Origin: Burkholderiales bacterium
GTDB lineage: Bacteria > Pseudomonadota > Gammaproteobacteria > Burkholderiales > Burkholderiaceae_C
NCBI GenBank assembly: GCA_031414735.1
Contig: JANNWL010000227.1
Location: forward strand, 1,909-65,908
Reading direction: 5' to 3'
DNA length: 64,000 nt
This document shows positions 5,530 to 38,759 of the stretch, piece by piece (the first letter of the stretch is position 1; the number at the start of each line of letters is the position of its first letter). A program made the position numbers and the translations under genes. A model generated the notes under the pieces. It saw only the letters and a program-made list of their open reading frames with translations, had not been told where the DNA came from and searched no databases.

Positions 5530-5549
5530 ACGGCTGAAGGACACGCGCC

Positions 5550-6209
5550 ATGACGACCATCAACGCCACCGCCAGCCTGCTTGCAGGCAGCAGCACCAGC
5601 AACCCCGTGCAGACCGCCAACGAGGCGGGCAGCGCCGACCGCTTCCTGAAGCTGCTCGTCACCCAGCTGCAGAACCAGGACCCGCTGAATCCGCTGGACA
5701 ACGCGCAGATCACGAGCCAGATGGCGCAGATCAACACCGTCAGCGGCATCGAAAAGCTCAACACCACGGTGCAGGGCCTGAATGGCCAGTTCATGCAGAT
5801 GCAGGTGTTGCAGGGCACGGCCCTGGTCGGGCGTGACGTGACGCTGCCGGGCAACAAGCTGGCGCTGGAGGACGGGGTCGGCACGGCCGGCTTCGAGCTG
5901 GCCGGTCCCGCCGACCGCGTGGTCGTGGAGGTGCTGGCACCTTCGGGCCGCGTCATCGACACACTCAGCCTGGGGGCGCAGTCCGCCGGCCGCAGTTCCT
6001 TCAACTGGACCCCGGCTGCGGCGAGCGGTGCGGTGGACGGCGAGAAGTACAGCTTTCGCATCGCCGCCACGACGGGCACAACGCGGGTTGGCAGCGAGCC
6101 GCTGATGCTGGACCGCGTGCGCGCGGTCAGCCTCGACGGTGACCGCCTGATGCTGGAAACCCAGAACTCGGGCCGCGTCGCCTATGGCGACATCCGCGCC
6201 TTCAATTGA
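5550..6209 (+). CDS. flgD: Flagellar hook assembly protein FlgD
   Basis: FLKLLVTQLQNQDPLNPLDN signature. Confidence 0.97.
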   Translation: MTTINATASLLAGSSTSNPVQTANEAGSADRFLKLLVTQLQNQDPLNPLDNAQITSQMAQINTVSGIEKLNTTVQGLNGQFMQMQVLQGTALVGRDVTLPGNKLALEDGVGTAGFELAGPADRVVVEVLAPSGRVIDTLSLGAQSAGRSSFNWTPAAASGAVDGEKYSFRIAATTGTTRVGSEPLMLDRVRAVSLDGDRLMLETQNSGRVAYGDIRAFN

Positions 6210-6252: not shown

Positions 6253-7473
6253 ATGAGCTTCCAGCAAGGCCTCTCCGGACTCAATGCCACCAGCAAAAGT
6301 CTGGACGTCATAGGCAACAACATCGCCAATGCCAACACCTACGGCTCCAAGGTGGCGCGCGCCGAGTTTTCTGATTTGTATGCCGCGTCGCTGGGCAACG
6401 AGGGCTCCAACCTCGTCGGCATCGGCACCAAGATGTCCGCGGTGGCGCAGCAGTTCAGCCAGGGCGGCATCACGACCACGTCCAATCCCATGGATCTGGC
6501 CATCAACGGCGCAGGCTTCTTTCAGCTCGCGGACCCGGCGGGCTCCAGCCGCAGCTTTTCACGCAATGGCCAGTTCAAGGTGGACGTCGAGGGCTACGTC
6601 GTGACCAACAGCGGCATGCGTCTGATGGGCATCCCGGCCGACACCGGTGCCGGTGCCGAGCCGACGGCGCTGAAGCTGCCGACCGGACGCATGTTGCCGC
6701 CGCAGCCCACGGCCAGTGTGACGGTCGAGTTCAATCTCGATTCGCGCAATGCCGCGCCCACCCAGCCCATCAACTTCAGCGACGAGAGCACGTACAACAG
6801 CGCGACTTCGGTCACGGTGCATGACGCGCAAGGCATCAGCTCCGCCGTGACGCTGTACTTCCGCAAGACTGCAGCACCCAACACCTGGGAGGTCTACGCC
6901 ACCCAGAACGGGCTGTCAGTGAATGACCCCCCCACGCCGCTGACCGAGTTGGTCTTTGCCGACGGCGGCACTGCGCCCACGGCGCCGTTGGCGCCGTTCG
7001 ACTTGCCGGTCCTCAGTGCCGGCGGTCTGGCGCGAACGCTGCAGATGGACATGACCAAGGCGACCCAGTTCGGAGCCAGCTTCGCCGTCTCGGACCTGCT
7101 CCAGGATGGCTTCAGCGCTGGCCAACTCACGTCGGTGGCGGTCGAAAAGAATGGCGAGATATCGGCCCGCTATTCCAACGGCGAAACGCGTCCGGCGGGC
7201 ACATTGATCCTGGCCAACTTCCGCAATCCCCAGGGCCTGGTGCCCGTGGGTGACAACGCGTGGCGACAGTCCTCGGCGTCGGGCGAGGTGGTGCCCGGTC
7301 AGCCCGGCGACGGCCTGGTGGGCGCGGTGCAGGCCGGCGCGCTGGAAGAGAGCAACGTCGACCTGACCGCCGAGCTGGTCAACATGATCACCACCCAACG
7401 CATGTACCAGGCGAATGCCCAGGCGGTGAAGACGCAGGACCAGATCCTGCAAACACTCGTCAACCTCCGCTAG
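6253..7473 (+). CDS. flgE: Flagellar hook protein FlgE
   Basis: MSFQQGLSGLNA, VIGNNIANANT, LEESNVDLTAELVNMI; AAGGA RBS before ATG 6253. Confidence 0.97.
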   Translation: MSFQQGLSGLNATSKSLDVIGNNIANANTYGSKVARAEFSDLYAASLGNEGSNLVGIGTKMSAVAQQFSQGGITTTSNPMDLAINGAGFFQLADPAGSSRSFSRNGQFKVDVEGYVVTNSGMRLMGIPADTGAGAEPTALKLPTGRMLPPQPTASVTVEFNLDSRNAAPTQPINFSDESTYNSATSVTVHDAQGISSAVTLYFRKTAAPNTWEVYATQNGLSVNDPPTPLTELVFADGGTAPTAPLAPFDLPVLSAGGLARTLQMDMTKATQFGASFAVSDLLQDGFSAGQLTSVAVEKNGEISARYSNGETRPAGTLILANFRNPQGLVPVGDNAWRQSSASGEVVPGQPGDGLVGAVQAGALEESNVDLTAELVNMITTQRMYQANAQAVKTQDQILQTLVNLR

Positions 7474-7492
7474 CCCGGGCCGACGCTGACCG

Positions 7493-8215
7493 ATGGACCG
7501 CCTCATCTACCTGTCCATGGCCGGCGCCAAGGCCACCATGCAGCGCCAGGACGTGCTGGCCAACAACCTGGCGAATGCGTCGACCACCGGCTTTCGCGCC
7601 GAGATGCAGGCCTTTCGCGCCGTGCCCGTGCGGGGCGACGGCGCCAGCACGCGCGTTTACGCGTTGGAATCGACGATCGGCAACGACACCCGGGCCGGCC
7701 CGTTGCAGCAGACCGGCCGCGGCCTGGACGTGGCCGCCCAAGGCAACGCCTGGTTTGCCGTGCAGGCGCTGGATGGCACCGAGGCCTACACGCGCAACGG
7801 CGCGTTCCAGGTCGACTCGCAGGGGCAGCTCGTCACCAGCACAGGTCTGCCCGTGCTGGGTGACGGCGGCCCCATCACCTTGCCTGCGGGCGCCGCGGTC
7901 GAGGTCGCCGCCGACGGCAGTATCAACGCCACGGTCGGCAACGGCCGACCGCAGCAGGCCGGGCGCTTGAAGCTCGTCAGCCCAGAGGCCCCCTTGCTGC
8001 GCGGTACCGACGGTCTGTTTCGCGCAGCCGACGGCGACCTCACCGCCGACCCCGCCGCGCGCGTGCAGGGCGGGGCGCTGGAGGGGTCCAACGTGAACCC
8101 CATCGAGACCATGGTGGCGATGATCGCCGCGGCGCGCCAGTTCGAGCACCAGATGAAGATGCTGCAAGGCGCCGAGCAGCGCGAGCAGGGTGCTGCCAAG
8201 CTGCTCGCACCCTGA
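7493..8215 (+). CDS. flgF: Flagellar basal-body rod protein FlgF
   Basis: MDRLIYLSMAGA, NNLANASTTGFR, LEGSNVN. Confidence 0.96.
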   Translation: MDRLIYLSMAGAKATMQRQDVLANNLANASTTGFRAEMQAFRAVPVRGDGASTRVYALESTIGNDTRAGPLQQTGRGLDVAAQGNAWFAVQALDGTEAYTRNGAFQVDSQGQLVTSTGLPVLGDGGPITLPAGAAVEVAADGSINATVGNGRPQQAGRLKLVSPEAPLLRGTDGLFRAADGDLTADPAARVQGGALEGSNVNPIETMVAMIAAARQFEHQMKMLQGAEQREQGAAKLLAP

Positions 8216-8358
8216 TCTCCAGGCCGCAGCGTCCCGCCCGCGGGGCGCCGGACGGGCCGGACGGACCGGAAAAAGGCGTCCCATGACCCCGCTTTTCCAA
8301 GCCTGGCCGGGCTCAAGTCCACGCCAACATCGGCGCTTACTCGCAAGGGGCACGCACC

Positions 8359-9141
8359 ATGATCCGATCGCTGTGGATTGCCAAGACCGGCATGGAAGGC
8401 CAGCAGACCAAGCTGGACGCCATCGCCAACAACCTGGCCAACACGGGCACCAACGGCTTCAAGCGTGGCGGTGTGGTGTTCGAGGACCTGATGTACCAGA
8501 ACCTGCGCCAGGCCGGCTCGGCCACCTCGGACCAGAGCACGCTGCCCACGGGTTTGCAGGTGGGCCTGGGCGTGCGCGCCGCGGGCACCACGCGCAACTT
8601 CGGCCAGGGCGCGCTGCAGCAGACGGGCAACAACCTGGACATGGCCGTCCAGGGCCAAGGCTTCTTTCAGGTGCAGTTGCCGGACGGCAGCACCGGCTAC
8701 ACGCGTGACGGCGCGTTCCAGGTCGACGCCAACGGCCAGCTCGTCACCAGCGCCGGTTACCCGGTGCAGCCCGGCATCACCATCCCCGCCAACGCGCAGA
8801 ACGTGAGTGTGGCCCGGGACGGCACGGTCAATGTCAGCCTGCCGGGCCAGGTCGCGCCACAGGGGCTGGGGCAGTTGCAGCTCGCGTCCTTCGTCAACCC
8901 GGCGGGCCTGGACCCACGGGGCGGCAATCTCTTTGGCGAGACTGCCGCGTCGGGCACGCCGAATGCCGGCGCGCCTGGCGCGAACGGGCTGGGCTCCTTG
9001 CAGCAAGGCTTTGTCGAGGGCAGCAACGTCAACGTGATCGAGGAGCTGGTGTCGATGATCGCCACCCAGCGCGCCTACGAACTCAATTCCAAGGCCGTGC
9101 AGACGTCAGACCAAATGCTGCAGCGCCTGGCGCAGCTCTGA
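8359..9141 (+). CDS. flgG: Flagellar distal rod protein FlgG
   Basis: [35 protein letters not shown]. Confidence 0.97.
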
Positions 9142-9144
9142 GCC

Positions 9145-9822
9145 ATGGGCATTTCCACACTCACAAGACTGGCCGCGCTGGGCCTGCCCGTGGCGCTGTC
9201 GGGCTGCTTCACGCTCTACCCGCGCGTCGACGTGGCCGAAACGCTGCCCGTGCCCGAACCCGTGGCGGCGGTGCCGGTCACGGGCAACGGCGCCATCTTC
9301 CAGTCGGGCAACTACCGGCCGCTGTTCGAAGACCACCGCGCGCGGCTGGTCGGCGACACGTTGGTGGTGCAGATCGTGGAGAAGGTCAGCGCCAGCCAGA
9401 AGTCCACCAGCTCCATCGACAAGGGCGGCACCATTGCCGGCTCGGTCACGGCGCTGCCGGGGGTCAAGCCAGCGGCCTTCGCGCGCGCCAACGCAGCGGG
9501 CAGCTCGGCCAACACCTTTGCCGGCAAGGGCGCCACCGAAAGCAGCAACGACTTCTCGGGGACCATCACCGTCATCGTGCGCGGGGTGTTGCCCAACGGC
9601 CATCTGCTCATCACCGGGGAGAAGCAGATCGGCGTCAACAGCAATGTCGACGTTCTGCGTTTCTCGGGCCAGGTCGACCCGCGCGCCATCCAGCCCGGCA
9701 ACAGCGTGCAGAGCGCGCAGGTCGCCAACGTGCGGCTTGAACACCGCGGCCGCGGTGCGCAGGCCGACGCCCAGGCGATCGGCTGGCTGTCGAGGGTGTT
9801 TCTTTCGGTCATGCCCATATGA
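9145..9822 (+). CDS. flgH: Flagellar L-ring lipoprotein FlgH
   Basis: Lipobox [23 protein letters not shown]. Confidence 0.96.
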
Positions 9823-11889: not shown

Positions 11890-13845
11890 ATGAGCGGCTC
11901 ACCGCTGATGTCCCTGGGCATCAAGGCCATGAACGCGAACTTCGCGGCCCTGCAGACCACCGGCAACAACATCGCGAATGCCAACGTGGCGGGCTACTCG
12001 CGCCAGCAGGCGGAACTGTCGACCACGCCGGGCCAGTTCACGGGCAGTGGCTACTTCGGGCGCGGCGTGAATGTCGACACGGTCAGCCGCTCGCACGACG
12101 CCTTGCTGATGCGCGAGGCAGCGGGCGCCAAGTCGTTGTCGGCGATGGACGCCGCCAGGTTGTCACAGTTGAACCGGCTGGAGCAGATCTTCAAGCCCGG
12201 CCAGGCCGGCATGGGCCACGCCATCAGCCAGTTTCTGAACTCCATGGTGGACGTGAGCAGCCGCCCCGCCGACGGCTCGGCCCGCCAGGTGGTGCTGGCA
12301 CGGGCGGGCGAGCTGACGGCGCGCTTCAACAGCGCGGGCGCGGCCCTCAACGACCTGCAGGCCGGGGTGACCGCCGACATCAAGGCCGCCATCGCCGAGA
12401 CCAACAGCCTGACCGAGTCCATCGCGCAGGCCAACCAGCGCATCGCCGCGGTGAAGGGCCTGGGCCAGCCGGCCAACGACCTGCTGGACGAGCGCGACCG
12501 GCTCATCAGCCGCTTGAGCGAAAAGTTCCAGATCAGCCAGATCCCCGCCAGCGACGGCACCGTGGGCATCTTCATCAGCGGCGGCCAGCGCCTGGTGCTG
12601 GGCGTGCAGGCCAGCAAAATGGTGGTGGCGGCTGACGAGTCCAACCCCGAACGGGTCGCCGTGGGTATCCAGGACGGCCCCAACGTGCGGCTGCTGAACG
12701 ACGGCTCGCTCGGCAGTGGCCAGGTGGTCGGCCTGCTGCGCTTCCAGAACCGCGACCTCGTCGACGGTGCCAACCTGCTCGGCCGCCTGGCCGCCACCGT
12801 GGGTGCCGCTGTCAACACCCAGCAGCAGCGTGGCCTGAGCTTGAAGCCCCAGGGCAACGCGGGCGCGCCGCTGATGTTCGGCCTGGGCGCGGGCTATGGT
12901 GCGGCCGGGCCGCAGCAGGCCATGCCCCATGCCAACAACGCGCGCGGCCCCGGTGGCCCGCTGGGCAGCGTGTCCTTCACCATCAGCGACCCGACACGGC
13001 TGCAGGCCAGCGACTACCAAATCGAAGTCACTGCAGGCGTGGCCACCCTGCGGCGCCTGCCCGATGGCGCCGCCAGCCCGGTGGCCGACGGCGACGTGGT
13101 CGACGGCGTGAAGATCAGCTTCGGCGCCACCGGCCCGCAAGAGGGCGACCGATTCCTGCTGCGGCCCGTCGGCCGAGCCGCGCTGGACATGACGCGGCTG
13201 ATCGACGACCCGCGCGACCTGGCCGCCGCATCGCCGCTGGTGGCCACCATGGCCGCGACCAACACCGGCAGCGGCCGCATCGGCGCGCTCACCGCCACGG
13301 CCGCGCCGTTGCCGTTTCCGGGGCAGAACGAAACCATCACCTTCAACCGGCTGGTGCCGGCGCAGGACGGCTTCAACTTCACCGTCACGTCCAGCCTGGG
13401 TGGCGGGCCGGTGCCCTGGAACGCCGGCACCCCCGTGCGTGGCGCGAACGGCTTCGAGATCCAGATAGACGGCGTGCCCGCCGAGGGCGATGTGCTCCAG
13501 GTCGAACCCACGCCGGCCTCGGCCATCAGCAGCAACAACGGCAACGCCAACGCCCTGCTGGCGCTGCGCGACGCGGCGCTGGTCGACGGCCACACGTCCA
13601 CAGACGCCTATGCACTGGCCATGTCCGAGGTGGCGGTGCGGGTGCAAGGCGGGCGCACGGCGGCCGACCTGTCGGGCGCCGTGGCCGACCAGGCGAATGC
13701 GGCGTTGGGAGCGGCCACTGGCGTCAACCTGGACGAAGAGGCCGCGCGGCTGATCCAGTTCCAGCAAAGCTACCAGGCGGCGGCCAAGATGCTGCAGGTG
13801 GCGCAGACCCTGTTCGACGTGCTGCTGCAGACGACAGGCCGCTGA
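11890..13845 (+). CDS. flgK: Hook-associated protein FlgK
   Basis: TTGNNIANANVAGYSRQ, NDLLDERD, GVNLDEEAARLIQFQQSYQA. Confidence 0.97.
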   Translation: MSGSPLMSLGIKAMNANFAALQTTGNNIANANVAGYSRQQAELSTTPGQFTGSGYFGRGVNVDTVSRSHDALLMREAAGAKSLSAMDAARLSQLNRLEQIFKPGQAGMGHAISQFLNSMVDVSSRPADGSARQVVLARAGELTARFNSAGAALNDLQAGVTADIKAAIAETNSLTESIAQANQRIAAVKGLGQPANDLLDERDRLISRLSEKFQISQIPASDGTVGIFISGGQRLVLGVQASKMVVAADESNPERVAVGIQDGPNVRLLNDGSLGSGQVVGLLRFQNRDLVDGANLLGRLAATVGAAVNTQQQRGLSLKPQGNAGAPLMFGLGAGYGAAGPQQAMPHANNARGPGGPLGSVSFTISDPTRLQASDYQIEVTAGVATLRRLPDGAASPVADGDVVDGVKISFGATGPQEGDRFLLRPVGRAALDMTRLIDDPRDLAAASPLVATMAATNTGSGRIGALTATAAPLPFPGQNETITFNRLVPAQDGFNFTVTSSLGGGPVPWNAGTPVRGANGFEIQIDGVPAEGDVLQVEPTPASAISSNNGNANALLALRDAALVDGHTSTDAYALAMSEVAVRVQGGRTAADLSGAVADQANAALGAATGVNLDEEAARLIQFQQSYQAAAKMLQVAQTLFDVLLQTTGR

Positions 13846-30305: not shown

Positions 30306-30619
30306 GAGGCTTCCTTCGGGTTCGCTGCGGGCGCCATGCCGGCTGCGTGAAGGCAGTTTCATCCCGAGGTAGCTCACAGACTGAGCTACCAATCCGTCGC
30401 ACAGCGATTTCTTCGGCGGGCGCACGGTCGGTCGGCGCGCACGGGACTTGAAGCGCTCGATCGCCGGAAAAGCCAGCAGAAGTTCACGCTTTTCCGGCGC
30501 AATCGGCTGGACCGACCTCAAGCCGCTGCGCGGGCGGCCGAGAAGACTGGCGTGAAGGCCGAACCTGCGCTGCGCTGCGCTGTTCGCCTGCCCCCTTGTT
30601 TCTTTGCGACGGGATTCTC

Positions 30620-32911
30620 ATGACAACAAGACCGCAACTCCTCCGGCGCCTGGCCGTCCTCACCGGGATGGTGTGGGCTCTCGGCTCGACCGGTGCCGCG
30701 CAAGCCCAGTCGTCGAACACCAGCAAGCTGTCCAGCGATCTCAAGAGTGTGTCGACGTCGCCCACCAACCCGGCTGCATCCGTGCCGTGGGCCAGGAATC
30801 TGAATGGTCAGACCCATGTTCGGGTGCTCATCAACGCCCGAAGCACCGACCCTGATCTGAAGGCGCTGCGTGCGGAGATCGTCGTCCGGGGCGGTTCGGT
30901 GTACTACAACTATCTGTCCGTGCGCGCCTTGTCTGCGTTGTTGCCGGCCAGCGAGTTGGCGGCGCTGGCCGCGCGCGCCGACGTGCTCAGCATCTCGCCC
31001 AACCGGCCCGTGCAGCGCCACGCCAGCCTGTTGCAGACCGTCACCGGGTCCGCCACGCTCCTGCCGGGCAGCCTGGGCGGGGTGAATGCGGCCGGCACGG
31101 CCCTGACCGGTGCCGGCGTGGGCATCGCCGTCCTCGACTCGGGCATCGACTTCCGTCACCAGAGCACCTTCGACGCATGGGGCGTGACCCGCGTCCGCAA
31201 CGCGATCGACATCGTGGGCGACGCCAAGGCCCGTGGCAAGAGCGTGTGGAAGAAACACGCCGACGGGTCGGAAGCGGTGCGGAAGTGGATGCGGGAGGAC
31301 AAGCTCGCCAAGCTCAATTCCTCCGACCCCGATCCGTATGGCCACGGCACCCATGTCGCCACGGTGGCGGCGGGCAACGGCAGCTACCAGTTGCCCGAGT
31401 CTGGCGGCGTGGCGCCAGGCGCTGACCTGCACGACGTGCGGGTGCTTGACGAAAACGGCATCGGCGACATGGACGACGTGCTGGCCGGCATTGACTGGGT
31501 CATCCAGCGTGCGCGCGCGACCAACATCCGTGTCATGAACCTCAGCCTGGGGGCGTCCTCGGTGGACTCCTTCCTGCTCGACCCGCTGGCCCGCGCCGTG
31601 CGCAGTGCCACGGCCGCCGGCATCGTGGTGGTGACGTCCGCGGGCAACTACGGCAAGAACGCGGCGGGCGCCAAGGTTCATGGTGCGGTGTCCTCGCCGG
31701 GACACGAGCCCTCGGCCATCACAGTTGGCGCGTCCAACATGCTGGCCACCGCTGACCGCGGCGACGACCTGGTCGCCGGCTTCAGCTCGCGCGGCCCCAC
31801 GCGCGGCGGGTTCACGATGGCCAGCGGCCGGCGCTGGGTGGACAACCTGATCAAGCCGGACCTCGTCGCGCCGGGCAACCGGGTGGTCGCCGCGCTGGCC
31901 GCCGACAGCGGCAAAAGCACGTCGGGCTGGAACCTGCTGGCGCGCAGCTACCCGCAACTGTCCCAGGTGGTCGGCGCCGGCCAGACCAGCCGCCGCACGC
32001 TGATGGAGCTCAGCGGCACTTCCGTCGCCGCGCCCGTGGTCGCCGGCGCTGCGGCCTTGCTGCTGGAGGCCAACCCGGGCCTGACGCCACCGCTGGTGAA
32101 AGCCATCCTGCAGTACACCGCGCAGCCGCTGGCCAACGCCAGCCTCGTGGAGCAAGGCACGGGCATGTTGAACGTCGAGGCCGCAGTGCGCCTGGCGCAG
32201 GCTCTGCGGACCGATCTGGGCCCCGCATTGGCCGCGGGCACCCTGCGGACCGGCGACAACATGCTGGCCGCTGGCCGCGTGTTGCCTGTCCAGGCATCGA
32301 CCTACAGTGGTCGCGCCGTGCCTTGGAGCCGCATGGTCTACGCGGGCGGGACCCACCTGGCCGGCGGTGACGCCTTGTTCACGCAGTGGCAGCCCGTGTA
32401 CGACCCGGCACTGACCTGGGCGCGCCAGGCGGTGCTGCGCAGCGTGGTCACCAACGCGCCGGGGGGCGCGCAGGTGCAGTCCATCGTGGAAGTCACGGCG
32501 CCTGCGCAGCCGCTGCTGACGGCAGGCGTGCGCCTGTTCGACGTGCTGGGCGGCAGCGTCAAGACCGGTGGCAGCCTGCTGACCACGCCGGTGGCCACCT
32601 TGGCCGGCCAGGTCGCCCGGGGCGCGGGCATGACCTTGCGCCTGGGCTTCAGCGGCGGCGCCGGCAGCGTCATGGGTGAAGGGGTGCCGCTGAGCCAGGG
32701 CTTCATCCTCAGCGAGGGCTTCATCCTGAGCGAAGGCTTCATCCTCAGCGAGGGCTTCATCCTGAGCGAAGGCTTCATCCTCAGTGAAGGCTTCATCCTG
32801 AGCGAGGCCTTCATCCTCAGCGAAGGCTTCATCCTGAGCGAGGGTTTCATTCTCAGTGAAGGCTTCATCCTGAGCGAGTCGCTGCGCGAACGCACGCTGC
32901 TGGGCGACTGA
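30620..32911 (+). CDS. Secreted S8 (subtilase) serine peptidase with a C-terminal (GFILSE)x10 tail
   Basis: Signal peptide ending AAQA; catalytic triad motifs AVLDSGI, HGTHVA, SGTSVAAP; oxyanion SAGN; DLVAPG. Confidence 0.95.
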   Translation: MTTRPQLLRRLAVLTGMVWALGSTGAAQAQSSNTSKLSSDLKSVSTSPTNPAASVPWARNLNGQTHVRVLINARSTDPDLKALRAEIVVRGGSVYYNYLSVRALSALLPASELAALAARADVLSISPNRPVQRHASLLQTVTGSATLLPGSLGGVNAAGTALTGAGVGIAVLDSGIDFRHQSTFDAWGVTRVRNAIDIVGDAKARGKSVWKKHADGSEAVRKWMREDKLAKLNSSDPDPYGHGTHVATVAAGNGSYQLPESGGVAPGADLHDVRVLDENGIGDMDDVLAGIDWVIQRARATNIRVMNLSLGASSVDSFLLDPLARAVRSATAAGIVVVTSAGNYGKNAAGAKVHGAVSSPGHEPSAITVGASNMLATADRGDDLVAGFSSRGPTRGGFTMASGRRWVDNLIKPDLVAPGNRVVAALAADSGKSTSGWNLLARSYPQLSQVVGAGQTSRRTLMELSGTSVAAPVVAGAAALLLEANPGLTPPLVKAILQYTAQPLANASLVEQGTGMLNVEAAVRLAQALRTDLGPALAAGTLRTGDNMLAAGRVLPVQASTYSGRAVPWSRMVYAGGTHLAGGDALFTQWQPVYDPALTWARQAVLRSVVTNAPGGAQVQSIVEVTAPAQPLLTAGVRLFDVLGGSVKTGGSLLTTPVATLAGQVARGAGMTLRLGFSGGAGSVMGEGVPLSQGFILSEGFILSEGFILSEGFILSEGFILSEGFILSEAFILSEGFILSEGFILSEGFILSESLRERTLLGD
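32699..32878 (+). repeat. Coding tandem repeat, 10 x 18 bp (GGCTTCATCCTSAGYGAR), encoding GFILSE
   Basis: Ten contiguous units read directly; unit 7 encodes AFILSE; almost all variation is synonymous. Confidence 0.98.
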
Positions 32912-32934
32912 ACGCCCTCGCACCGCCCGCCAGG

Positions 32935-32966
32935 GGCCGGCTTCGCGCAACGCGAAGCCGGCCTTT
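32935..32966 (+). terminator. Intrinsic terminator after the S8 peptidase
   Basis: 13-bp perfect stem GGCCGGCTTCGCG-CAA-CGCGAAGCCGGCC followed by TTT. Confidence 0.8.
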
Positions 32967-33002
32967 GTCCTGGTCTGCAGCACCCGGGCGGCACGGGCGC
33001 TC

Positions 33003-33029
33003 TCAAGTCCCGACCCCGACTGTCGATCT
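33003..33029 (+). promoter_or_regulatory. Possible sigma-28 promoter of the membrane GGDEF-EAL gene
   Basis: TCAA-N15-GTCGATCT; -35 box and spacing match, -10 box matches 5 of 8 positions. Confidence 0.35.
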
Positions 33030-33090: not shown

Positions 33091-35613
33091 ATGAAGATTC
33101 CCTCCACGCAAGCCCCGCCGGCTGCCGGGGCCGCCGCCGCCAGGCCCGGCTTCAGGCGGCGCCACCTGTTCGACTACACGCCGGGCGCCGCCCGCCTGTG
33201 GTCGGGCATTGCGCTGGCGGGTGCTGCTGCCCTGGCGTGGGCGCTGTGGCAGGTGGCTGCGCTGCCGGCGCAGGCTTTGGCGCCGGTGTTCCTGGGTGGG
33301 GCGCTCGCCGCAGCGGCCGCACTGTTTCCATTGCAGATTCCGCGCACCTCGCACACCGTGCTGGTGGCCGATGTCTTCGTCTTCAGCATTCTGGCGGCCC
33401 TGGGGCCGGCCGCGGCCATGCTGGCGGCCGGTGCAGAAGCGGCGGTCGGCACCTACAGGACGTCCAAGCGTCTGACCAGCCGTGTGCTGAACCCCTCACT
33501 GGCCATGGCGGCGATGGCAGCCACCGGCGCCGTGTTCGTGGGTGGGGGCGGGCTGCTGCGTGCCTGGGGCTGTGCGCCCGCGGTGGCCGACCTGCTGGCC
33601 TTGTGCCTGGCCGCACCTGTGCAAGGTGTCTTGACCACCGCGCCGGTGATGTGGGTGTTGGCCCTGAAGAGGCAGGTGCCGTTGCGCTACGCGGACTGGT
33701 TCGGCGCTGCCAGCTGGGTGCTTGCCATGGGCCTGGCGGCGGCCCTTGTGGCCGGCATCCTGCACATCACGACGCAACGCTCCGGCCCGGGCGTGCTGGT
33801 CGTGGCGGCGGCCGTGGCCCTTGCGCTGGTGCTGTTGCTGCGCCACACCCTGGCGCAGCATGAGCTCGAACGCAAGGAGCAGGAGCAACGCATCAGCGAG
33901 GCGCAACGCGAGGCGGAGTTGAACCTGCAACGGTTCAGCGCCGCTTTCACGCAGGCCGCCATCGGCATGGCCATCGTCACGCCGATGGGGCAGGTGCTGC
34001 AGGCCAACGAGGCCCTGTGCCGCCTGCTCAGGCGCAACGAGCACCAGATGCTCAGCCAGCCCTTCTACGGTGTCTGGGCCGACGGCGACGCCGCACTGCT
34101 GCGCCGCAGGGCCGACCAGGTGCTGGGCGAAGCCGAGCCGGGCTTCTCGATGGAGCTGGGCTGCCTGGCGCCCGACGGCCAGCCCTTGTGGACGTCGGTG
34201 CACTGCAGCCGCTACCTGGACCCCGGGGGCGCCGGGGGCTGCCTGATCTACCAGCTGCACGACATCACCTCCCGCCAGGCGGCCGAGTCGCGCTTGCACC
34301 ACATCGCCTACCACGATGGCCTGACCGACCTGGCCAACCGCAGCTGCTTCCACCAGCGCCTGGACCTGGCGGTGGAGGGCAGCCGCCTCGACGCGGGCAA
34401 GTGCTTCGCCGTGATGTTCCTGGACCTGGACCGTTTCAAGGTCGTGAACGACAGCCTGGGCCACATTGCCGGCAACGTGCTGCTTCGCGAGGTGGCGCAG
34501 CGTTTGCGCGCGTGCGTGCGCCCGGGCGATCTCGTGGCCCGCCTGGGCGGTGACGAGTTCGCCATTCTGTTGGAAAACGTGCAGGCCACCGAGCAGGCCC
34601 TGACGCTGGCCCAGCGCGTGCTGGACGCGCTGATACAGCCGATCTCGATCAACGGCACCGAGGTCGTGCCCGGCGCCAGTGTCGGTGTGACCTTCAGCGA
34701 CCTGGGTTACCGCACGGTGGACGAAGTCCTTCGCGATGCCGACCTGGCCATGTACGAGGCCAAGGCCGCAGGACGCGGCCGCGTGGTGGCGTTCGACATC
34801 AGCATGCATGAGCGCGTGGCCGAGAAGCTGGCCCTGGAGACCGACCTGCGGCACGCCATCGGCGAGGGGCAGTTGACGGTGATGTTCCAGCCGCTCTTCT
34901 ATCTGCAGCCTTACAGCCTGTACGGATTCGAGGCTCTGGCGCGCTGGGAACACCCGACACGCGGACCGGTCAGCCCGGCGGTGTTCATTGCCTTGGCCGA
35001 AGAGTCCGGTCACATCGAGGAGTTGACCTCCTGGGTGATCGACCATTCGGTGGCGCAGCTGGCGGCCTGGCGGCGGCAATCGCCCCACCTGGCCCACCTG
35101 GGGATGCACGTCAACATCTCCGGGCGCGACCTGGGCCGCGCCGGCCTGTCGGCAGAAGTGCAGCAGGTGCTCGCGCGCCACGCACTGCCGGGCGCCAACC
35201 TGACGCTGGAGATCACCGAGACCACCCTCATGGGCCGGCTGGACGTGGCGCTGAAGACGCTGGGCGAACTGCGCAACGCGGGCGTGCAATGCAGCATTGA
35301 CGACTTCGGCACGGGCTACTCGTCGCTGGCGTATCTGAGCACCTTGCCGATCGACAGCTTGAAGATCGACCGCTCCTTCGTCATGGGCATGGACCAGCAG
35401 CCGCAGAACGTGGAAATCGTGCGGGCCGTCAACAACCTGGGCAAGTCCCTGGGCCACCGGGTGATTGCCGAAGGCATTGAGACGCCGCAACAGTTGGCCC
35501 TGCTGCGCACCCTGGGCGTGGCGCTGGGGCAGGGCTACTTGTTGTCACGACCGCTGCGGGCGGACCAGCTGTTGCCGCTGCTGCTGACAGGCCAGGGCGT
35601 CTCGGCGGTCTGA
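33091..35613 (+). CDS. Membrane sensor (about 7-8 TM) - PAS - GGDEF - EAL protein
   Basis: Hydrophobic N-terminal ~250 aa; AFTQAAIGMAIV PAS start; RLGGDEF, GFEALARW, DDFGTGYSSL, EGIE all intact. Confidence 0.92.
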   Translation: MKIPSTQAPPAAGAAAARPGFRRRHLFDYTPGAARLWSGIALAGAAALAWALWQVAALPAQALAPVFLGGALAAAAALFPLQIPRTSHTVLVADVFVFSILAALGPAAAMLAAGAEAAVGTYRTSKRLTSRVLNPSLAMAAMAATGAVFVGGGGLLRAWGCAPAVADLLALCLAAPVQGVLTTAPVMWVLALKRQVPLRYADWFGAASWVLAMGLAAALVAGILHITTQRSGPGVLVVAAAVALALVLLLRHTLAQHELERKEQEQRISEAQREAELNLQRFSAAFTQAAIGMAIVTPMGQVLQANEALCRLLRRNEHQMLSQPFYGVWADGDAALLRRRADQVLGEAEPGFSMELGCLAPDGQPLWTSVHCSRYLDPGGAGGCLIYQLHDITSRQAAESRLHHIAYHDGLTDLANRSCFHQRLDLAVEGSRLDAGKCFAVMFLDLDRFKVVNDSLGHIAGNVLLREVAQRLRACVRPGDLVARLGGDEFAILLENVQATEQALTLAQRVLDALIQPISINGTEVVPGASVGVTFSDLGYRTVDEVLRDADLAMYEAKAAGRGRVVAFDISMHERVAEKLALETDLRHAIGEGQLTVMFQPLFYLQPYSLYGFEALARWEHPTRGPVSPAVFIALAEESGHIEELTSWVIDHSVAQLAAWRRQSPHLAHLGMHVNISGRDLGRAGLSAEVQQVLARHALPGANLTLEITETTLMGRLDVALKTLGELRNAGVQCSIDDFGTGYSSLAYLSTLPIDSLKIDRSFVMGMDQQPQNVEIVRAVNNLGKSLGHRVIAEGIETPQQLALLRTLGVALGQGYLLSRPLRADQLLPLLLTGQGVSAV

Positions 35614-35740: not shown

Positions 35741-37114
35741 TCAGCTGCTGCGACGTACCCGTGCCCCCAGGGCCAGCAGGCCCAGCGCAAACAGCGCATA
35801 GGTGCCAGGCTCAGGCACCACGCTGACCTTCGCGAAGTAGGTGTCGATGCGCGTGGTGCCGTTGGGGTTGTCGCCGGTGAAGTTGGATGTGTCGCCCCAG
35901 GCCGCGACGAGCTTGCCGGCGTGAAAGTCCAGTGCGATGTAGTCGCCGCACTCGTTGCCGTCGCCGCCGATCGTGGCCGCCACGCAGCTGGTCACGCCCT
36001 GGCTGATCTTGAAGTTGGGCTCCCAACTCACGCCGCCGTTGAAGCTGAGCGTGCCCCACACCTCGACCGTGTTGTTGAGCGCCGAATTGCGTGCGTCGTA
36101 CCACACGGCACCCAGCCAGCCGGTGGTCTGGTCGACGGCCAGCCGGCCGAAGAACTGCGAGTTGGTGCCGACGTCGTTGTTCAGCTTCAGCTCGCTGCTG
36201 AAGGTGGCACCGTTGTCGTTGGAGCGGCGAAAGACGATGTCGGTGTTGTTGGTGGTGGTGTTGGCGGCTTGCGTGTACAGCATGTACAGGGCGCCGTTGT
36301 TGACGCCGCCTGTGGAGTCGTATTCCAGGTCGACCTGGGCGTCCACCGTGCGGCTGGGCTGCGGCGTGATCGGGCGGAAGCCGCCGACCTGGGTGGTCAC
36401 CGCGCTTTGCGCGACGAATGACGAACCGCCGGCCGTGCCATCGGCGTCGTAGCGGATCGTCATGCTGGTGGGGCCGATGCCGCCGGCTGGGCTCATCGAC
36501 GTGAATGCCGCGCGCCCGCTCGGGCCGACCGCGATCGAGCCGAAGTTACCCCCCGGGCCGACGGGCAACTGCGTGGTGAAGGCCGAGGTCACGCCCAGGC
36601 CTGTCGATGTGGCACTGATGATGCGGTTGCTGCTGCCGGTGGTGTCGCGCAGGAAAATGCTGTCGGTGCCGGGCGTGGGACCGGGGCCGATGCCCATCTC
36701 GGGGTGGTCTGAAGAGCCCGCGATGTTGGCGATGACGGTGTAGTTGGCGCCACCGTCCGTACTGCGGGCAATGGTGGTGGTGATGGCAGAGGTCAGGTAC
36801 GACACGTACATGTTGCCAAAGCGGTCAGCGCCCATCCAGGGGTCGCAACACGAGGTCGGCCCGAAGGAGCTGGGCGTGAATGAGGCCCCGCCGTTGTTGC
36901 TGAAACCCACGAAGATGCCGCTGCCGCCACGGCCGTTCGACCCCACGGTGATCATGTCGGTGTTGGTGCGGCTGATGGCGATGGACTGTTCGGACTGGTT
37001 GCCCGTCAATTTGGTGACGTTCACGTTGGGTCCGACCACATAGGTCTGGGCTTGGGCGCAGGGCGCCAGAACAGCCAACATGGACGCGGCGAGCTTGAAG
37101 GGCAACTTGGTCAT
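35741..37114 (-). CDS. PEP-CTERM exosortase substrate with BNR/Asp-box (sialidase-like) repeats
   Basis: Signal peptide; Asp boxes SNNGGASF, STDGGANY, SNDNGATF, SFNGGVSW; C-terminal VPEPGTYALFALGLLALGARVRRS. Confidence 0.92.
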   Translation of the reverse strand: MTKLPFKLAASMLAVLAPCAQAQTYVVGPNVNVTKLTGNQSEQSIAISRTNTDMITVGSNGRGGSGIFVGFSNNGGASFTPSSFGPTSCCDPWMGADRFGNMYVSYLTSAITTTIARSTDGGANYTVIANIAGSSDHPEMGIGPGPTPGTDSIFLRDTTGSSNRIISATSTGLGVTSAFTTQLPVGPGGNFGSIAVGPSGRAAFTSMSPAGGIGPTSMTIRYDADGTAGGSSFVAQSAVTTQVGGFRPITPQPSRTVDAQVDLEYDSTGGVNNGALYMLYTQAANTTTNNTDIVFRRSNDNGATFSSELKLNNDVGTNSQFFGRLAVDQTTGWLGAVWYDARNSALNNTVEVWGTLSFNGGVSWEPNFKISQGVTSCVAATIGGDGNECGDYIALDFHAGKLVAAWGDTSNFTGDNPNGTTRIDTYFAKVSVVPEPGTYALFALGLLALGARVRRSS

Positions 37115-37256
37115 GACGTTCCTCCTTGAAAATGTTTTGAAACTGTTTTGGGTCGAACCCAATGGCCCGTAACCGTACACCGGCATCCCCCGGCGGCACA
37201 ACACGGGATTGCGCGCACGGACCCCCCTCACTCGCGGGGGTGACGTTGGCGCCGGT

Positions 37257-38759
37257 TCAGCCCGGCGAGCCGCTGCGCCCGTACAGCCGCGACAACTCGG
37301 CCAGCCGGTGCGCATGCCAGGGGTGGACCTGCGCCCACTGGAAGCGCCAGCCCCACCAGCCGGATTCCTGGCCGGGGTAGTTCATGCGGCAATCGGTGGG
37401 CAGGGCCAGAACGTCCTGCATGGGGTGCACCGCCGTGTCGGCCACGCTGGCCATGGCGGCGCGGATCAGCGTCCAGGGCATGTCGTGGCCGTCTGTTGCC
37501 AGGTAGCCGCGGGCGAAGTGGCGTTCGCGGTCGGTGGCCTTGGCCCACCAGCCGGCGGTGGTGTCGTTGTCGTGGGTGCCGCTGTAGACCACGGTGTCGG
37601 GCTCGTGGTTGTGGGGCAGGAAACGGTCTGATGCATCGCCCGCAAACGCGAACTGCAGGATGCGCATGCCGGGCAGGCCGAACTTCTTGCGCAGGGCTTC
37701 CACGTCGGGGGTGATGAGCCCCAGGTCCTCGGCAATGATGGGCATGGGGCCCAGGGCCTTGTTGATGGCCTTGAAAAGCGCCTCGCCCGGGCCGGGCACC
37801 CAGCGCCCCTTGATGGCGGTGGGTTCGCTGGCCGGTATCTCCCAGTAGCCCGCAAAGCCGCGGAAGTGGTCGATGCGCACGATGTCGACGAGTTCGAAGG
37901 TGCGTCGCACGCGCTCCACCCACCAGGCAAAGCCGTCCTTGGCGTGCTCGCTCCAGCGGTACAGCGGGTTGCCCCAGCGCTGGCCCGTGGCACTGAAGAA
38001 GTCCGGCGGCACGCCAGCCACCACGCTAGGGCGGCCGTTTGCGTCCAGCTCAAACAGGTGCTGGTTGGCCCACACCTCGGCGCTGAGGTAGGCGATGAAG
38101 ATAGGCGTGTCGCCGATGATCTCGATGCCGCGGCTGTTGGCGTAGGCCTTCAGCGCCAGCCACTGACGGTAGAAGCTCCATTGGCAGAACTTCCAGAAGG
38201 CGATGCGATCGGCATGCTGCGCTCGTGCGGCAGCCAGGGCGGCGGGCTCGCGCCGGGCCAGGGCCGGGTCCCAGTCGCACCAGTCCTTCCAGTCCAGCGA
38301 TTCGCACAGCGCCATGAACAGCGCGTAGTCCTCGAGCCAGCTCTGGTGTTCGGCGTCGAAGCGGGCTTGGTCAGCCTGCTGCGCCTGGCTGCCTTGCGCA
38401 GTGAAGGCCGCCGCGGCCTTGGCCAGCCGTTCCATGCGGAAGGGGTACATCGCTGCGAAGTTGACCTGCGCGTCGTCCAGGCCGGCCACGGGCGCGAGGT
38501 CGACAGCTTCCAGCCAGCCCTGGCTGTGCAGTTCGGCCAGGTCGATGAGCAAGGGGTTGCCGGCGAAGGCCGAGTTGCTCATGTACGGCGAATTGCCCGG
38601 GCCGATGCCGGCCAGCGGCAGCAACTGCCACAGCTTCTGCCCGGCGCTGGCGAGCCAGTCGACGCAGTGGTAAGCCTCGCGACCGAAGTCGCCGCTGCCG
38701 TGCGGGCCGGGCAGGGATGTGGGATGCAGCAACACGCCGCTGGCTCGGGGGAATCTCAT
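37257..38759 (-). CDS. malQ: 4-alpha-glucanotransferase (amylomaltase, GH77)
   Basis: GVLLHPTSLP, GVPPDFFSATGQRWGNP, RIDHFRG, AEDLG, YSGTHDNDT. Confidence 0.97.
   Translation of the reverse strand: MRFPRASGVLLHPTSLPGPHGSGDFGREAYHCVDWLASAGQKLWQLLPLAGIGPGNSPYMSNSAFAGNPLLIDLAELHSQGWLEAVDLAPVAGLDDAQVNFAAMYPFRMERLAKAAAAFTAQGSQAQQADQARFDAEHQSWLEDYALFMALCESLDWKDWCDWDPALARREPAALAAARAQHADRIAFWKFCQWSFYRQWLALKAYANSRGIEIIGDTPIFIAYLSAEVWANQHLFELDANGRPSVVAGVPPDFFSATGQRWGNPLYRWSEHAKDGFAWWVERVRRTFELVDIVRIDHFRGFAGYWEIPASEPTAIKGRWVPGPGEALFKAINKALGPMPIIAEDLGLITPDVEALRKKFGLPGMRILQFAFAGDASDRFLPHNHEPDTVVYSGTHDNDTTAGWWAKATDRERHFARGYLATDGHDMPWTLIRAAMASVADTAVHPMQDVLALPTDCRMNYPGQESGWWGWRFQWAQVHPWHAHRLAELSRLYGRSGSPG

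What the first reader, a model, noticed from the sequence alone, without database searches (positions are those of the whole stretch)
30620..32911. Secreted subtilase carrying ten identical hexapeptides at its C-terminus: possible self-processing peptide-signal precursor
Seen: signal peptide, prodomain, an intact D/H/S triad, a ~150-aa linker domain, then (GFILSE)x10 and a short SLRERTLLGD end. The DNA units differ at synonymous sites while the peptide stays nearly invariant, so selection acts on the peptide. Established: multi-copy core peptides are typical of peptide-signal and RiPP precursors, and enzyme-substrate fusions exist (omphalotin OphMA, BURP-domain precursors). Inference: the protease cuts its own tail (e.g. 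after Glu) to release ~10 copies of a GFILSE peptide per molecule. Alternatively the tail is a beta-solenoid or amyloid-like surface anchor. I know of no functional description of such tails.
Basis: partly seen in the sequence, partly recalled or inferred. Interest (0 to 1): 0.85.

Follow-up and report, generated by a model that had tools for sequence, protein, structure and literature searches.

The report
Repeat-tailed subtilase paired with membrane sensor
A secreted protease ends in ten copies of one six-residue peptide kept identical by strong selection, and across two phyla its gene sits beside a membrane sensor that controls c-di-GMP, so the two probably form an undescribed protease-to-signalling module.

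Summary
Gene 30620-32911 (+) encodes a Sec-type pre-pro-subtilase with an intact D/H/N/S site and a folded beta domain. It ends in nine GFILSE units plus one AFILSE, then SLRERTLLGD.

The tail is a family trait. Every complete homologue examined, from Burkholderiales and Acidobacteriota, carries an array of G-hydrophobic(x3)-[SA]-[ED] units. The unit differs between genes. Selection keeps units alike: 599 distinct DNA units encode only 197 peptide units. In a 71%-identical orthologue the tail is 59/60 identical at the same synonymous divergence as the body.

AlphaFold gives the array no confident fold. The array lies where the closest structural relative, Tk-SP, has a removable C-propeptide. 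Tail-only database hits that I tested were all other S8 subtilases.

The new point is the partner gene. A membrane sensor with almost no periplasmic loops, joined to PAS-GGDEF-EAL or HD-GYP-GAF-GGDEF, follows the protease. It co-occurs with it in 16 of 17 positive genomes out of 201.

My best reading (about 0.35) is that the protease sheds its tail and the peptides, or the tail itself, feed this sensor. Cleavage, its register and binding are untested. I found no support for cutting after Glu or for a RiPP analogy, and no paper on this module.

The parts
30620..32911 (+). Pre-pro-subtilase gene (763 aa from ATG 30620; an upstream in-frame TTG lies at 30596)
   Evidence: ORF listing; Pfam Peptidase_S8 E 1e-46; more than 5000 homologues
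30620..30706 (+). Sec-type signal peptide MTTRPQLLRRLAVLTGMVWALGSTGAAQA, with a likely cut before QSS
   Evidence: Read from the translation; inference, since no predictor was run
30791..31018 (+). N-terminal prodomain (I9-like beta-alpha-beta fold)
   Evidence: AF2 secondary structure 66-141 with pLDDT 78-96; Pfam Inhibitor_I9 17.7 bits, below the 21.2 cut-off; pro-subtilisin structures among the fold hits
31109..32149 (+). S8 catalytic domain; D181 (31136-31138), H250 (31343-31345), oxyanion N351 (31646-31648), S476 (32021-32023)
   Evidence: Pfam; invariant columns in 80 sequences; coordinates verified
32213..32698 (+). Its last about 25 residues are degenerate hexapeptides (GMTLRL GFSGGA GSVMGE GVPLSQ) modelled as short strands 6 residues apart
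   Evidence: AF2 pLDDT above 90 for 540-650 and 660-680, falling to 72 at 691-700; best fold match 3afg ProN-Tk-SP, which has a beta-jelly-roll domain in this position
32699..32878 (+). Array of ten hexapeptide units (9 x GFILSE, 1 x AFILSE); hydrophobic core, one Glu per unit, mean Kyte-Doolittle hydropathy +1.10
   Evidence: TRF; unit table; AF2 pLDDT 27-41; 59/60 residues identical in the 71%-identical orthologue L092 at 34% synonymous codon divergence
32879..32908 (+). C-terminal cap SLRERTLLGD. The family consensus ends ...LLGE(P) or ...LGD. One relative, L095, lacks the cap
32931..32967 (+). 17-bp GC-rich hairpin (-33.6 kcal/mol) followed by TTTG, between protease and sensor genes; a possible terminator or attenuator
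   Evidence: ViennaRNA fold; the consensus terminator scan did not call it because the T-run is short
33091..33960 (+). N-terminal membrane domain of the partner sensor: six full TM helices plus a short re-entrant helix pair; periplasmic loops of 2-4 residues; MASE9-like, ECF-S-component-like fold
   Evidence: AF2 pLDDT 92.4; Foldseek top 16 hits are all ECF S components, with weak E of 5e-3 to 0.1; transitive link to Pfam MASE9 through Blastocatellia homologues
33961..35613 (+). Cytoplasmic PAS-GGDEF-EAL output of the sensor. GGDEF with an RxxD I-site, and EAL motifs DDFGTGYSS and EGIE, are intact
   Evidence: Pfam; motif check

Best explanation
The subtilase and the downstream membrane protein form a two-gene signalling module.

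The protease is exported by Sec and matures by removing its N-prodomain. It then removes its own C-terminal array, at the place where its closest structural relative removes a C-propeptide (this step is inferred). That would release identical hydrophobic, singly acidic hexapeptides or short oligomers of them. The cut is more likely after the third hydrophobic residue than after Glu.

These peptides would partition into the outer leaflet of the inner membrane. There they would bind the pocket of the MASE9-like, S-component-like sensor domain, which has essentially no periplasmic loops. Binding would shift the balance of c-di-GMP synthesis and hydrolysis by its PAS-GGDEF-EAL output (HD-GYP-GAF-GGDEF in Blastocatellia).

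Shown:
- the architecture of the protease and the sensor;
- the family-wide tail;
- selection for identical units;
- the conserved pairing and co-occurrence of protease and sensor.

Inferred:
- cleavage of the tail and its register;
- that the tail or its peptides are the sensor's ligand;
- the direction of the c-di-GMP change.
For: 1. Every complete family member examined carries a homogeneous array G-phi-phi-phi-[SATG]-[ED] of 4-17 units. The unit differs between genes (GFILSE, GFIVSE, GFLLTE, GIVLSE, GLVLSE, GVLVSD and others).
2. Units are kept alike by selection, not by recent copying. In 87 arrays, 741 units comprise 599 distinct DNA sequences but only 197 distinct peptides. Segregating variants are 526 synonymous to 343 non-synonymous, against 26% synonymous expected (p 1e-102).
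3. Per possible single-base change, synonymous variants are seen at 39%. Changes to residues that are the consensus in other arrays are seen at only 6.9%.
4. Orthologue L092 is 71% identical overall, yet its tail is 59/60 identical with ten units. Synonymous codon divergence is 34% in the tail and 33% in the catalytic block, where amino-acid identity is 80%. Relative L095 has GILLSE x10, so all units changed together.
5. AF2 gives no confident fold for residues 701-771 (pLDDT 27-41), while the rest of the protein is confident.
6. The best fold match is Tk-SP, whose C-propeptide follows a beta-jelly-roll domain and is removed on maturation (PMC12474785).
7. Hits that matched only the tail were other S8 subtilases with other hexapeptide tails; 8 of 8 long ones tested were S8.
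8. A homologue of the sensor N-domain starts 6-374 nt downstream, on the same strand, of 47 of 86 family genes that have enough flank. This includes Blastocatellia, where the output domains differ.
9. No other flanking gene is conserved.
10. In 201 genomes (about one per genus) of the family, the protease occurs in 17, the sensor in 17 and both in 16 (Fisher p 1.6e-21).
11. The window's own genome has four proteases, four intact sensors and one sensor remnant.
12. The sensor domain has loops of only 2-4 residues on the periplasmic side and resembles small-ligand-binding ECF S components. Galperin and Chou predicted ligand binding within the membrane for MASE9.
Against: - No cleavage, free peptide or binding has been observed.
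- No S1 feature explains a Glu-specific cut, and the prodomain junction does not co-vary with the tail's E or D.
- Phe-type tails form a single clade in the protease tree, so tail-sensor co-variation amounts to one event. One protease with a GLVLSE tail (L034_4763) precedes a sensor of the clade otherwise paired with Phe-type tails.
- Many Pyrinomonadaceae members carry tails but have no adjacent sensor detectable with this query.
- One sensor in this genome (C40) has no adjacent protease.
- The degenerate units just before the array are modelled as regular short strands, which hints that the array could be structural.
- A strong hairpin separates the two genes, so they may not be co-transcribed.
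- The Pfam MASE9 model hits only 1 of 33 sensor domains.
Confidence: 0.35

Rival explanations
1. Ordinary C-terminal propeptide. The array is a removable or retained extension that delays activation (pseudo-substrate), helps folding or helps export, as in other secreted subtilases. It has no signalling role of its own. The sensor is linked to the protease in another way, for example by sensing hydrophobic products of protein digestion, or by being a substrate or regulator of the protease.
For: The array occupies the same position as the Tk-SP C-propeptide. Tails were found only on S8 domains. The array has no confident fold. Tails also occur in Pyrinomonadaceae members without a detectable adjacent sensor. 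C-terminal pro-sequences of secreted subtilases are established knowledge.
Against: A latency or folding element would not need 7-12 identical units. It would also not be the most conserved part of the protein (59/60 identical, against 80% in the catalytic block). Nor would it show a deficit of otherwise acceptable I/L/V exchanges within an array. This reading does not explain the tight co-occurrence with one particular sensor domain.
Confidence: 0.25
2. Tethered ligand or docking tail. The array is not released. Its hydrophobic-acidic units lie on or in the periplasmic face of the inner membrane and dock the protease onto the sensor. The sensor then either reports the presence of the protease or, in an inside-out manner, holds and releases it according to c-di-GMP. 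This would work like LapD-LapG but with unrelated parts.
For: The pairing and co-occurrence are conserved. The sensor has no periplasmic domain, so any contact must be at the membrane. The array is hydrophobic (GRAVY +1.10) with regular charges. Identical units would suit multivalent binding. The sensor has an intact I-site.
Against: One Glu per six residues makes stable membrane insertion unlikely. The nearest structural relative removes its C-terminal extension. A protease active site tethered next to a flexible hydrophobic tail would be expected to cut it.
Confidence: 0.15
3. Structural repeat. The array folds, alone or by oligomerising, into a beta-solenoid (left-handed beta-helix-like) or a cross-beta stack that serves as a stalk, polymerisation element or matrix anchor. 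The sensor is only a neighbour involved in biofilm control.
For: Weak Pfam LbH_EIF2B hits occur on the tails of relatives (18-24 bits, against a cut-off of 54). AF2 places short strands 6 residues apart in the degenerate units at 685-700 and at 715-723. In-register stacks can favour identical residues. Another subtilase, Vpr, forms extracellular fibrils (PMC10657474).
Against: AF2 pLDDT is 27-41 over the array despite 80 aligned sequences. The unit does not fit the LbH motif [LIV]-[GAED]-x2-[STAV]-x in any register, and the window protein has no Hexapep hit. In distant members the motif copies are separated by irregular spacers (P0115-P0120). Solenoid repeats do not normally stay identical unit for unit. 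The Vpr paper's text does not mention C-terminal, donor or propeptide.
Confidence: 0.1

Closest known systems
Tk-SP (TKSP) of Thermococcus kodakarensis, PDB 3AFG
   Same: Best structural match (Foldseek E 3e-27). The order of parts is the same: N-propeptide, S8 domain, beta domain, C-terminal extension. Its C-propeptide (540-640) is absent from the mature enzyme (PMC12474785).
   Different: The Tk-SP C-propeptide is not a tandem hexapeptide array. It is archaeal and has no reported sensor partner. Sequence identity is only 29%.
MASE9 membrane sensor domain (Pfam PF20972; Galperin and Chou, bioRxiv 10.1101/2021.11.05.467447)
   Same: For the partner gene, the topology matches the published description: six full TM helices plus two short ones forming a hairpin, with tiny periplasmic loops. 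The same architectures occur (MASE9-HD-GYP-GAF-GGDEF and MASE9-GGDEF-EAL). The ligand is unknown and was predicted to bind within the membrane.
   Different: The Pfam model hits only 1 of 33 of these domains (best E 1.4e-5), and none of the betaproteobacterial homologues carries a precomputed PF20972. The paper does not mention a protease neighbour.
Multi-copy peptide-signal precursors cut by subtilisin-like proteases (yeast alpha-factor/Kex2, Ustilago Rep1/Kex2) and exported hydrophobic or short peptide signals (Enterococcus pheromones, Bacillus Phr); from my own knowledge
   Same: There are tandem identical short peptides under purifying selection, a subtilase, and a dedicated membrane receptor candidate. 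The peptides are hydrophobic like enterococcal pheromones.
   Different: Here precursor and protease are one polypeptide, with no spacer or dibasic site. The host is Gram-negative. The receptor is a c-di-GMP enzyme rather than a GPCR, kinase or RRNPP regulator. Release of peptide has not been shown.
LapD-LapG (Pseudomonas fluorescens); from my own knowledge
   Same: A periplasmic protease is functionally coupled to an inner-membrane GGDEF-EAL protein.
   Different: LapG is a cysteine protease. LapD has a periplasmic domain and degenerate GGDEF and EAL domains. Here the protease is a subtilase, the sensor has no periplasmic domain, and its GGDEF and EAL motifs are intact.
Left-handed beta-helix hexapeptide repeats (Pfam Hexapep PF00132, LbH_EIF2B PF25084)
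   Same: The period is six residues, with sub-threshold LbH_EIF2B hits on relatives.
   Different: The motif does not fit in any register, the window protein has no hit, and AF2 gives no confident solenoid.
   Same: A catalytic domain is fused to repeated core-like peptides.
   Different: No methyltransferase, BURP or other modifying domain or neighbouring gene is present. Only the protease-sensor pair is conserved.

Membership tests
Peptidase S8 (subtilase) | Asp-His-Ser triad in that order, plus an oxyanion Asn | tested here: met
   D181, H250, N351 and S476 are invariant in 80 sequences. Pfam PF00082 scores 159.9 bits against a cut-off of 21.8.
Peptidase S8 (subtilase) | Subtilisin fold | tested here: met
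   AF2 core pLDDT is mostly above 90. Foldseek hits to subtilisins have E down to 3e-27.
Subtilases with an I9 N-propeptide | Inhibitor_I9 prodomain before the catalytic domain | tested here: inconclusive
   Pfam gives 17.7 bits, below the 21.2 cut-off. AF2 shows a beta-alpha-beta-beta-alpha-beta unit at 66-141, and pro-subtilisins are among the fold hits.
Tk-SP-like subtilases with a removable C-propeptide | Beta-jelly-roll domain after S8, followed by a C-terminal extension | tested here: met
   The top Foldseek hit is 3afg, aligned over 504 columns. The beta domain at about 560-700 is followed by the tail.
Tk-SP-like subtilases with a removable C-propeptide | Autocatalytic removal of the C-terminal extension | not testable with these tools
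   This needs protein chemistry. It is known only for Tk-SP.
Left-handed beta-helix hexapeptide repeat | Motif [LIV]-[GAED]-x2-[STAV]-x and a match to Hexapep models | tested here: not met
   The window protein has no Hexapep or LbH hit at E 0.01. No register of GFILSE fits the motif. Relatives give only 18-24 bits against a cut-off of 54.
Left-handed beta-helix hexapeptide repeat | Confidently predicted solenoid | tested here: not met
   pLDDT is 27-41 over residues 701-771. An oligomer-dependent fold is not excluded.
MASE9 sensor domain (partner gene) | Match to PF20972 above its threshold | tested here: not met
   The window copy has no hit. Only 1 of 33 relatives hits, with best E 1.4e-5. 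Betaproteobacterial homologues carry no precomputed PF20972.
MASE9 sensor domain (partner gene) | Eight hydrophobic segments, two of them short and forming an intramembrane hairpin; minimal periplasmic loops; fused to HD-GYP(-GAF-GGDEF) or GGDEF-EAL | tested here: met
   AF2 topology. Architectures. Published description.
Multi-copy peptide-signal precursor | Tandem identical peptide units maintained by selection | tested here: met
Multi-copy peptide-signal precursor | Proteolytic release of the units and a receptor that responds to them | not testable with these tools
   The only evidence is circumstantial: S8-only association and a conserved sensor neighbour.
RiPP enzyme-substrate fusion (OphMA or BURP type) | A modifying catalytic domain or neighbouring maturase acting on the core peptide | tested here: not met
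   The only domains are S8 and the prodomain. No neighbour other than the sensor is conserved.
LapD-LapG inside-out system | LapG-type cysteine protease; a receptor with a periplasmic domain and degenerate GGDEF-EAL | tested here: not met
   The protease is a serine S8 enzyme. The sensor has 2-4-residue periplasmic loops. GGDEF, the I-site and the EAL motifs are intact.

The most novel reading that the evidence does not exclude
This would be a peptide-based signalling system in Gram-negative bacteria in which the signal precursor is fused to its own processing protease. Each exported molecule would release about ten identical hydrophobic hexapeptides that differ between lineages (GFILSE, GLVLSE, GILLSE and others). 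An intramembrane MASE9-like, S-component-like receptor would read them and convert them directly into c-di-GMP turnover. Paralogous protease-sensor pairs in one genome (here two Phe-type and two Leu-type) would act as separate channels. This would also give the orphan MASE9-type domain its first ligand.
Probability: 0.25. Interest if true: 0.9.

Novelty: new variant of a known kind. Interest (0 to 1): 0.68.

Why it matters
Membrane-embedded MASE-type sensor domains are common inputs of c-di-GMP enzymes, yet the MASE9 paper names no ligand for that domain. From my own knowledge, most MASE-type domains also lack a known signal. A conserved and specific genetic partner offers a concrete ligand to test, namely the tail units.

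If the tail is shed as peptides, this would be an autocrine or quorum-type peptide signal in Proteobacteria and Acidobacteriota, wired straight into biofilm and motility control. It would also be a new way of encoding a signal, as a polyprotein fused to its own protease.

Even if the signalling reading is wrong, the tail is notable in its own right. It is a widespread subtilase module that Pfam and NCBIfam do not catalogue. Its units are kept identical by selection, unit for unit, and that needs an explanation. Carriers include cultured strains (Rubrivivax albus ICH-3, Piscinibacter caeni MQ-18), so the tests are feasible.

Tried and rejected
1. Prodomain-junction test. If the enzyme cuts after the acidic residue, the likely autoprocessing site (consensus TAS-x-L-E|xxTG) should track the tail's E or D. 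It does not: the window clade has Q, and D-tailed acidobacteria have E or T. The result is inconclusive because the true junction is unknown.

2. Tail type against sensor clade. Phe-type tails form one clade in the protease tree, so any match with the sensor clade is a single event. One discordant pair exists (L034_4763). I drew no inference from this.

3. Mini-proteins carrying the unit, as earlier notes of this scan reported in other phyla. There are none in this genome.

4. Flank conservation by tblastx. A permissive run gave noise everywhere in this GC-rich DNA. A strict run showed that only the protease and the sensor are conserved.

5. The consensus promoter and terminator scan found nothing. 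A strong hairpin was found by direct folding.

6. Metagenome contigs of four runs break inside the array, so they give no information on copy-number variation.

7. Literature searches: 'GFILSE' gave 0 papers; subtilisin + hexapeptide repeat gave 1 paper, judged off-topic from title and abstract; subtilisin + c-di-GMP + repeats gave 0; the MASE9 paper has no protease mention; the Vpr fibril paper's text does not mention C-terminal, donor or propeptide.

8. Pfam and NCBIfam have no model for the tail.

9. Readings considered and rejected from the sequence: an autotransporter, because the tail is far too short for a barrel; and PEP-CTERM, GlyGly-CTERM or LPXTG sorting signals, because there is no TM helix or basic end.
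Full report
**1. The observation**

Residue numbers below use the 771-aa ORF from the upstream TTG at 30596. Pfam Peptidase_S8 covers residues 172-518 (E 1e-46). NCBIfam gives only sub-threshold hits to other S8 families.

In an alignment with 79 full-length homologues, D181, H250, N351 and S476 are invariant. I verified their coordinates. Tandem Repeats Finder reports an 18-bp and 36-bp array at 32690-32878.

Read in frame, the array is nine GFILSE units and one AFILSE unit at nt 32699-32878. It is followed by SLRERTLLGD and the stop codon.

The units differ from their consensus by 14 synonymous substitutions and 1 non-synonymous substitution. The Leu codon alternates strictly CTC/CTG.

In the whole 4.4-Mb genome, read in six frames, arrays of two or more such units occur only in four paralogous subtilase genes.

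**2. Fold of the protease**

The AF2 model, built from the 80-sequence alignment, has mean pLDDT 79.9. It is confident for a beta-alpha-beta prodomain (66-141), the catalytic core and a beta domain (about 560-700).

Confidence decays through four degenerate hexapeptides just before the array: 86 at 681-690, then 72, then 41. Across the array and cap it is 27-36.

The best PDB match is ProN-Tk-SP (3afg, E 3e-27). That enzyme matures by losing an N-propeptide (1-113) and a C-propeptide (540-640) that follows its beta-jelly-roll domain (PMC12474785). The hexapeptide array occupies the same position.

**3. The tail is a family trait**

A homologue search returned more than 5000 proteins, mostly from Burkholderiales metagenome bins. 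Of the best 120, the 79 that are complete at the C-terminus all end in hexapeptide arrays and a terminal G-[ED]-x0-1. The rest are fragments or frameshifted gene calls.

A scan of one genome per species gave 79 loci. They come from these groups:
- Rubrivivax, Piscinibacter, Ideonella, Aquabacterium and Usitatibacter;
- the cultured strains P. caeni MQ-18 and R. albus ICH-3;
- Acidobacteriota (Blastocatellia, Pyrinomonadaceae, Chloracidobacterium).

All but one of the complete family genes carry a homogeneous array (L063 has only degenerate units). The unit differs between genes:
- with Phe at position 2: GFILSE, GFIVSE, GFLLTE, GFILTE;
- with an aliphatic residue at position 2: GIVLSE, GLVLSE, GVVLSE, GLILSE, GLVMAE, GVLFSE, GITLSE, GMTLAE;
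- with Asp, in acidobacteria: GVLVSD, GVLISD, GVLVGD, GIMIAD.

A search of 1.84 billion representative proteins with the C-terminal 242 residues also found proteins that match through the tail alone. The eight long ones I tested are all S8 subtilases of other architectures, with other hexapeptide tails such as GFVWSD, GFLWNE and GIMLSD/GMVLGD. Tails of this kind therefore go with S8 catalytic domains.

**4. Selection on the units**

Over 87 arrays and 741 units, 599 units are distinct as DNA but only 197 are distinct as peptide. Variants segregating within an array are 526 synonymous and 343 non-synonymous, where random mutation would give 26% synonymous (p 1e-102).

I also counted variants per possible single-base change:

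| Type of change | Share seen within an array |
|---|---|
| Synonymous | 39% |
| To a residue that is the consensus at that position in at least two other arrays | 6.9% |
| Other non-synonymous | 1.3% |

Uniformity within an array is therefore selected beyond the motif class. Third-position changes are not a perfect neutral yardstick in GC-rich DNA, which limits this comparison.

The clearest case is an orthologue from a metagenome (L092, 71% identical overall). Its tail has ten units and is 59/60 identical to the window's tail. Yet 34% of identical codons in the tail differ synonymously, the same as in the best-conserved catalytic block (33%), where amino-acid identity is only 80%. The tail is the most conserved part of the protein, and unit-by-unit orthology and copy number have been kept. 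A more distant relative (L095, 54% identical) has GILLSE x10 and no cap, so all units changed together.

**5. The partner gene**

The gene that begins 180 nt downstream (33091-35613) encodes a membrane domain followed by PAS-GGDEF-EAL. Its GGDEF motif, RxxD I-site and EAL motifs are intact.

Arrangement in the window's own genome:
- Contig C480 carries two protease paralogues followed by two sensor paralogues.
- Contig C396 carries a protease followed by a deletion remnant of a sensor, in which the first TM segment is fused to a piece of EAL.
- Contig C40 carries a fourth intact sensor between leuS and exbBD. In relatives, that is the site where the protease-sensor pair lies.

Across the 79 related loci, 47 of 86 family genes with more than 1.2 kb of downstream sequence are followed by a homologue of the membrane domain. 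It starts 6-374 nt downstream on the same strand. Tandem proteases often precede one or two sensors.

In Blastocatellia the same membrane domain is fused to HD-GYP-GAF-GGDEF instead. In Pyrinomonadaceae and Betaproteobacteria it is fused to PAS-GGDEF-EAL. Nothing else in the flanks is conserved.

In 201 genomes (about one per genus) of the window's family, the protease C-terminal part occurs in 17, the sensor domain in 17 and both in 16 (Fisher p 1.6e-21). At order level the protease C-terminal part is rare, with 4 of 201 genomes positive.

**6. The nature of the sensor domain**

Pfam has no hit for the window copy. A Blastocatellia homologue hits MASE9 weakly, and only 1 of 33 aligned domains does so (best E 1.4e-5).

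AF2 models the domain at pLDDT 92.4. It has six full TM helices, a short re-entrant helix pair, and loops of 2-4 residues on the periplasmic side. This matches the published description of MASE9, whose ligand is unknown and was predicted to bind within the membrane.

The top 16 PDB fold matches are all substrate-binding S components of ECF transporters, including NikM/CbiM, RibU, ThiT, BioY and FolT. The scores are weak but consistent: E 5e-3 to 0.1 and target TM-scores of 0.5-0.7. Four of the 33 domains also give weak Pfam ECF-ribofla_trS hits. I call the domain MASE9-like. I do not call it a member by the Pfam criterion.

**7. Interpretation**

Four facts point to a function that reads the peptide sequence of the units:
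- The units are kept identical.
- The tail is the best-conserved part of the protein.
- The unit differs between lineages.
- AF2 finds no confident fold for the array.

Two more facts make self-processing the natural expectation: such tails were found only on S8 domains, and the array sits at the position of a C-propeptide. The conserved pairing with a sensor that can only sense within or at the membrane suggests that the hydrophobic units, or the tail as a whole, are its input.

I give about 0.35 to released peptides acting as ligand. I give 0.15 to a tethered-tail version, 0.25 to an ordinary C-propeptide whose link to the sensor is indirect, and 0.10 to a structural solenoid or amyloid. The remainder is unknown.

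The register of any cut is open. By motif alignment to subtilisin BPN' (from my own knowledge), the residue at the bottom of S1 (position 166) is a conserved Ser in ...ISSPG..., and I saw no conserved basic residue there. A cut after the third hydrophobic residue (mostly Leu) is therefore more in line with ordinary subtilisin preference than a cut after Glu.

**8. Tests that failed or were inconclusive**

- The putative prodomain junction does not co-vary with the tail's acidic residue.
- Phe-type tails are one clade in the protease tree, and one discordant pair exists.
- No mini-proteins carry the unit in this genome.
- Metagenome contigs break inside the array.
- A 17-bp hairpin (-33.6 kcal/mol) lies between the two genes, so co-transcription is uncertain.

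**9. Prior knowledge**

I found no paper on these tails or on a subtilase partner of MASE9.

Earlier AI notes of this scan describe Trp-containing penta- and hexapeptide-tailed subtilases beside MASE9 sensors in Acidobacteriota and Actinomycetota. I reached the pairing independently before reading those notes, so they are leads and not evidence.

The present case adds four things:
- a betaproteobacterial branch without Trp in its units;
- quantitative evidence for unit-by-unit purifying selection;
- a one-per-genus co-occurrence test;
- the S-component-like fold of the sensor domain.

Noticed in passing
L006 (G000:C396) 5520-5850: Right after the paralogous GFILSE x11 subtilase lies a remnant of a sensor gene. 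The N-terminus and first TM segment are fused directly to a piece of the EAL domain (MHVNVSSRDL...LEITE), which indicates a large internal deletion.
   Followed up: partly
L091 (G000:C40) 6760-9285; compare L092, L093, L095: An intact sensor paralogue (42% identical in the N-domain) sits alone between leuS and exbD-exbB. In close relatives the same leuS...exbD site holds subtilase plus sensor. In this genome the protease was therefore lost from that site, or the pairs were rearranged.
   Followed up: partly
window 32931-32967: A 17-bp perfect GC-rich hairpin (-33.6 kcal/mol) followed only by TTTG lies between the subtilase and sensor genes. The consensus terminator scan missed it.
   Followed up: partly
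window 33091-33960: The sensor's membrane domain is modelled at pLDDT 92 and its best PDB fold matches are all ECF-transporter S components. This suggests that MASE9-type sensors and S components share a ligand-binding fold.
   Followed up: partly
L095 3409-5799: A relative's subtilase ends exactly after its last GILLSE unit, with no C-terminal cap. The otherwise conserved ...LLGE(P) or ...LGD end is therefore not strictly required.
   Followed up: no
P0184, P0212, P0227, P0137: Other S8 subtilase subfamilies carry different acidic hexapeptide tails (GFVWSD, GFLWNE, GIMLSD/GMVLGD). The Trp-type tails are followed by conserved ends such as ...NVWVEDQ and ...NTWVEQE.
   Followed up: partly
window 35741-37315 (-): A PEP-CTERM protein with BNR/Asp-box repeats lies just downstream of the sensor. 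It is not conserved next to the module in other genomes.
   Followed up: partly
P0011, P0082, P0089; window 32338-33006 (-): Several database 'proteins' are frameshifted readings of the repeat region (for example ...GLHPQRRFHPERG...). The window's antisense ORF with (KPSLRM)n is likewise an artefact of the array.
   Followed up: no
L082 and L084, about 11950-13070: In two Pyrinomonadaceae loci the sensor homologue lies about 1.1-1.2 kb downstream of the subtilase. I did not examine what lies in the gap.
   Followed up: no
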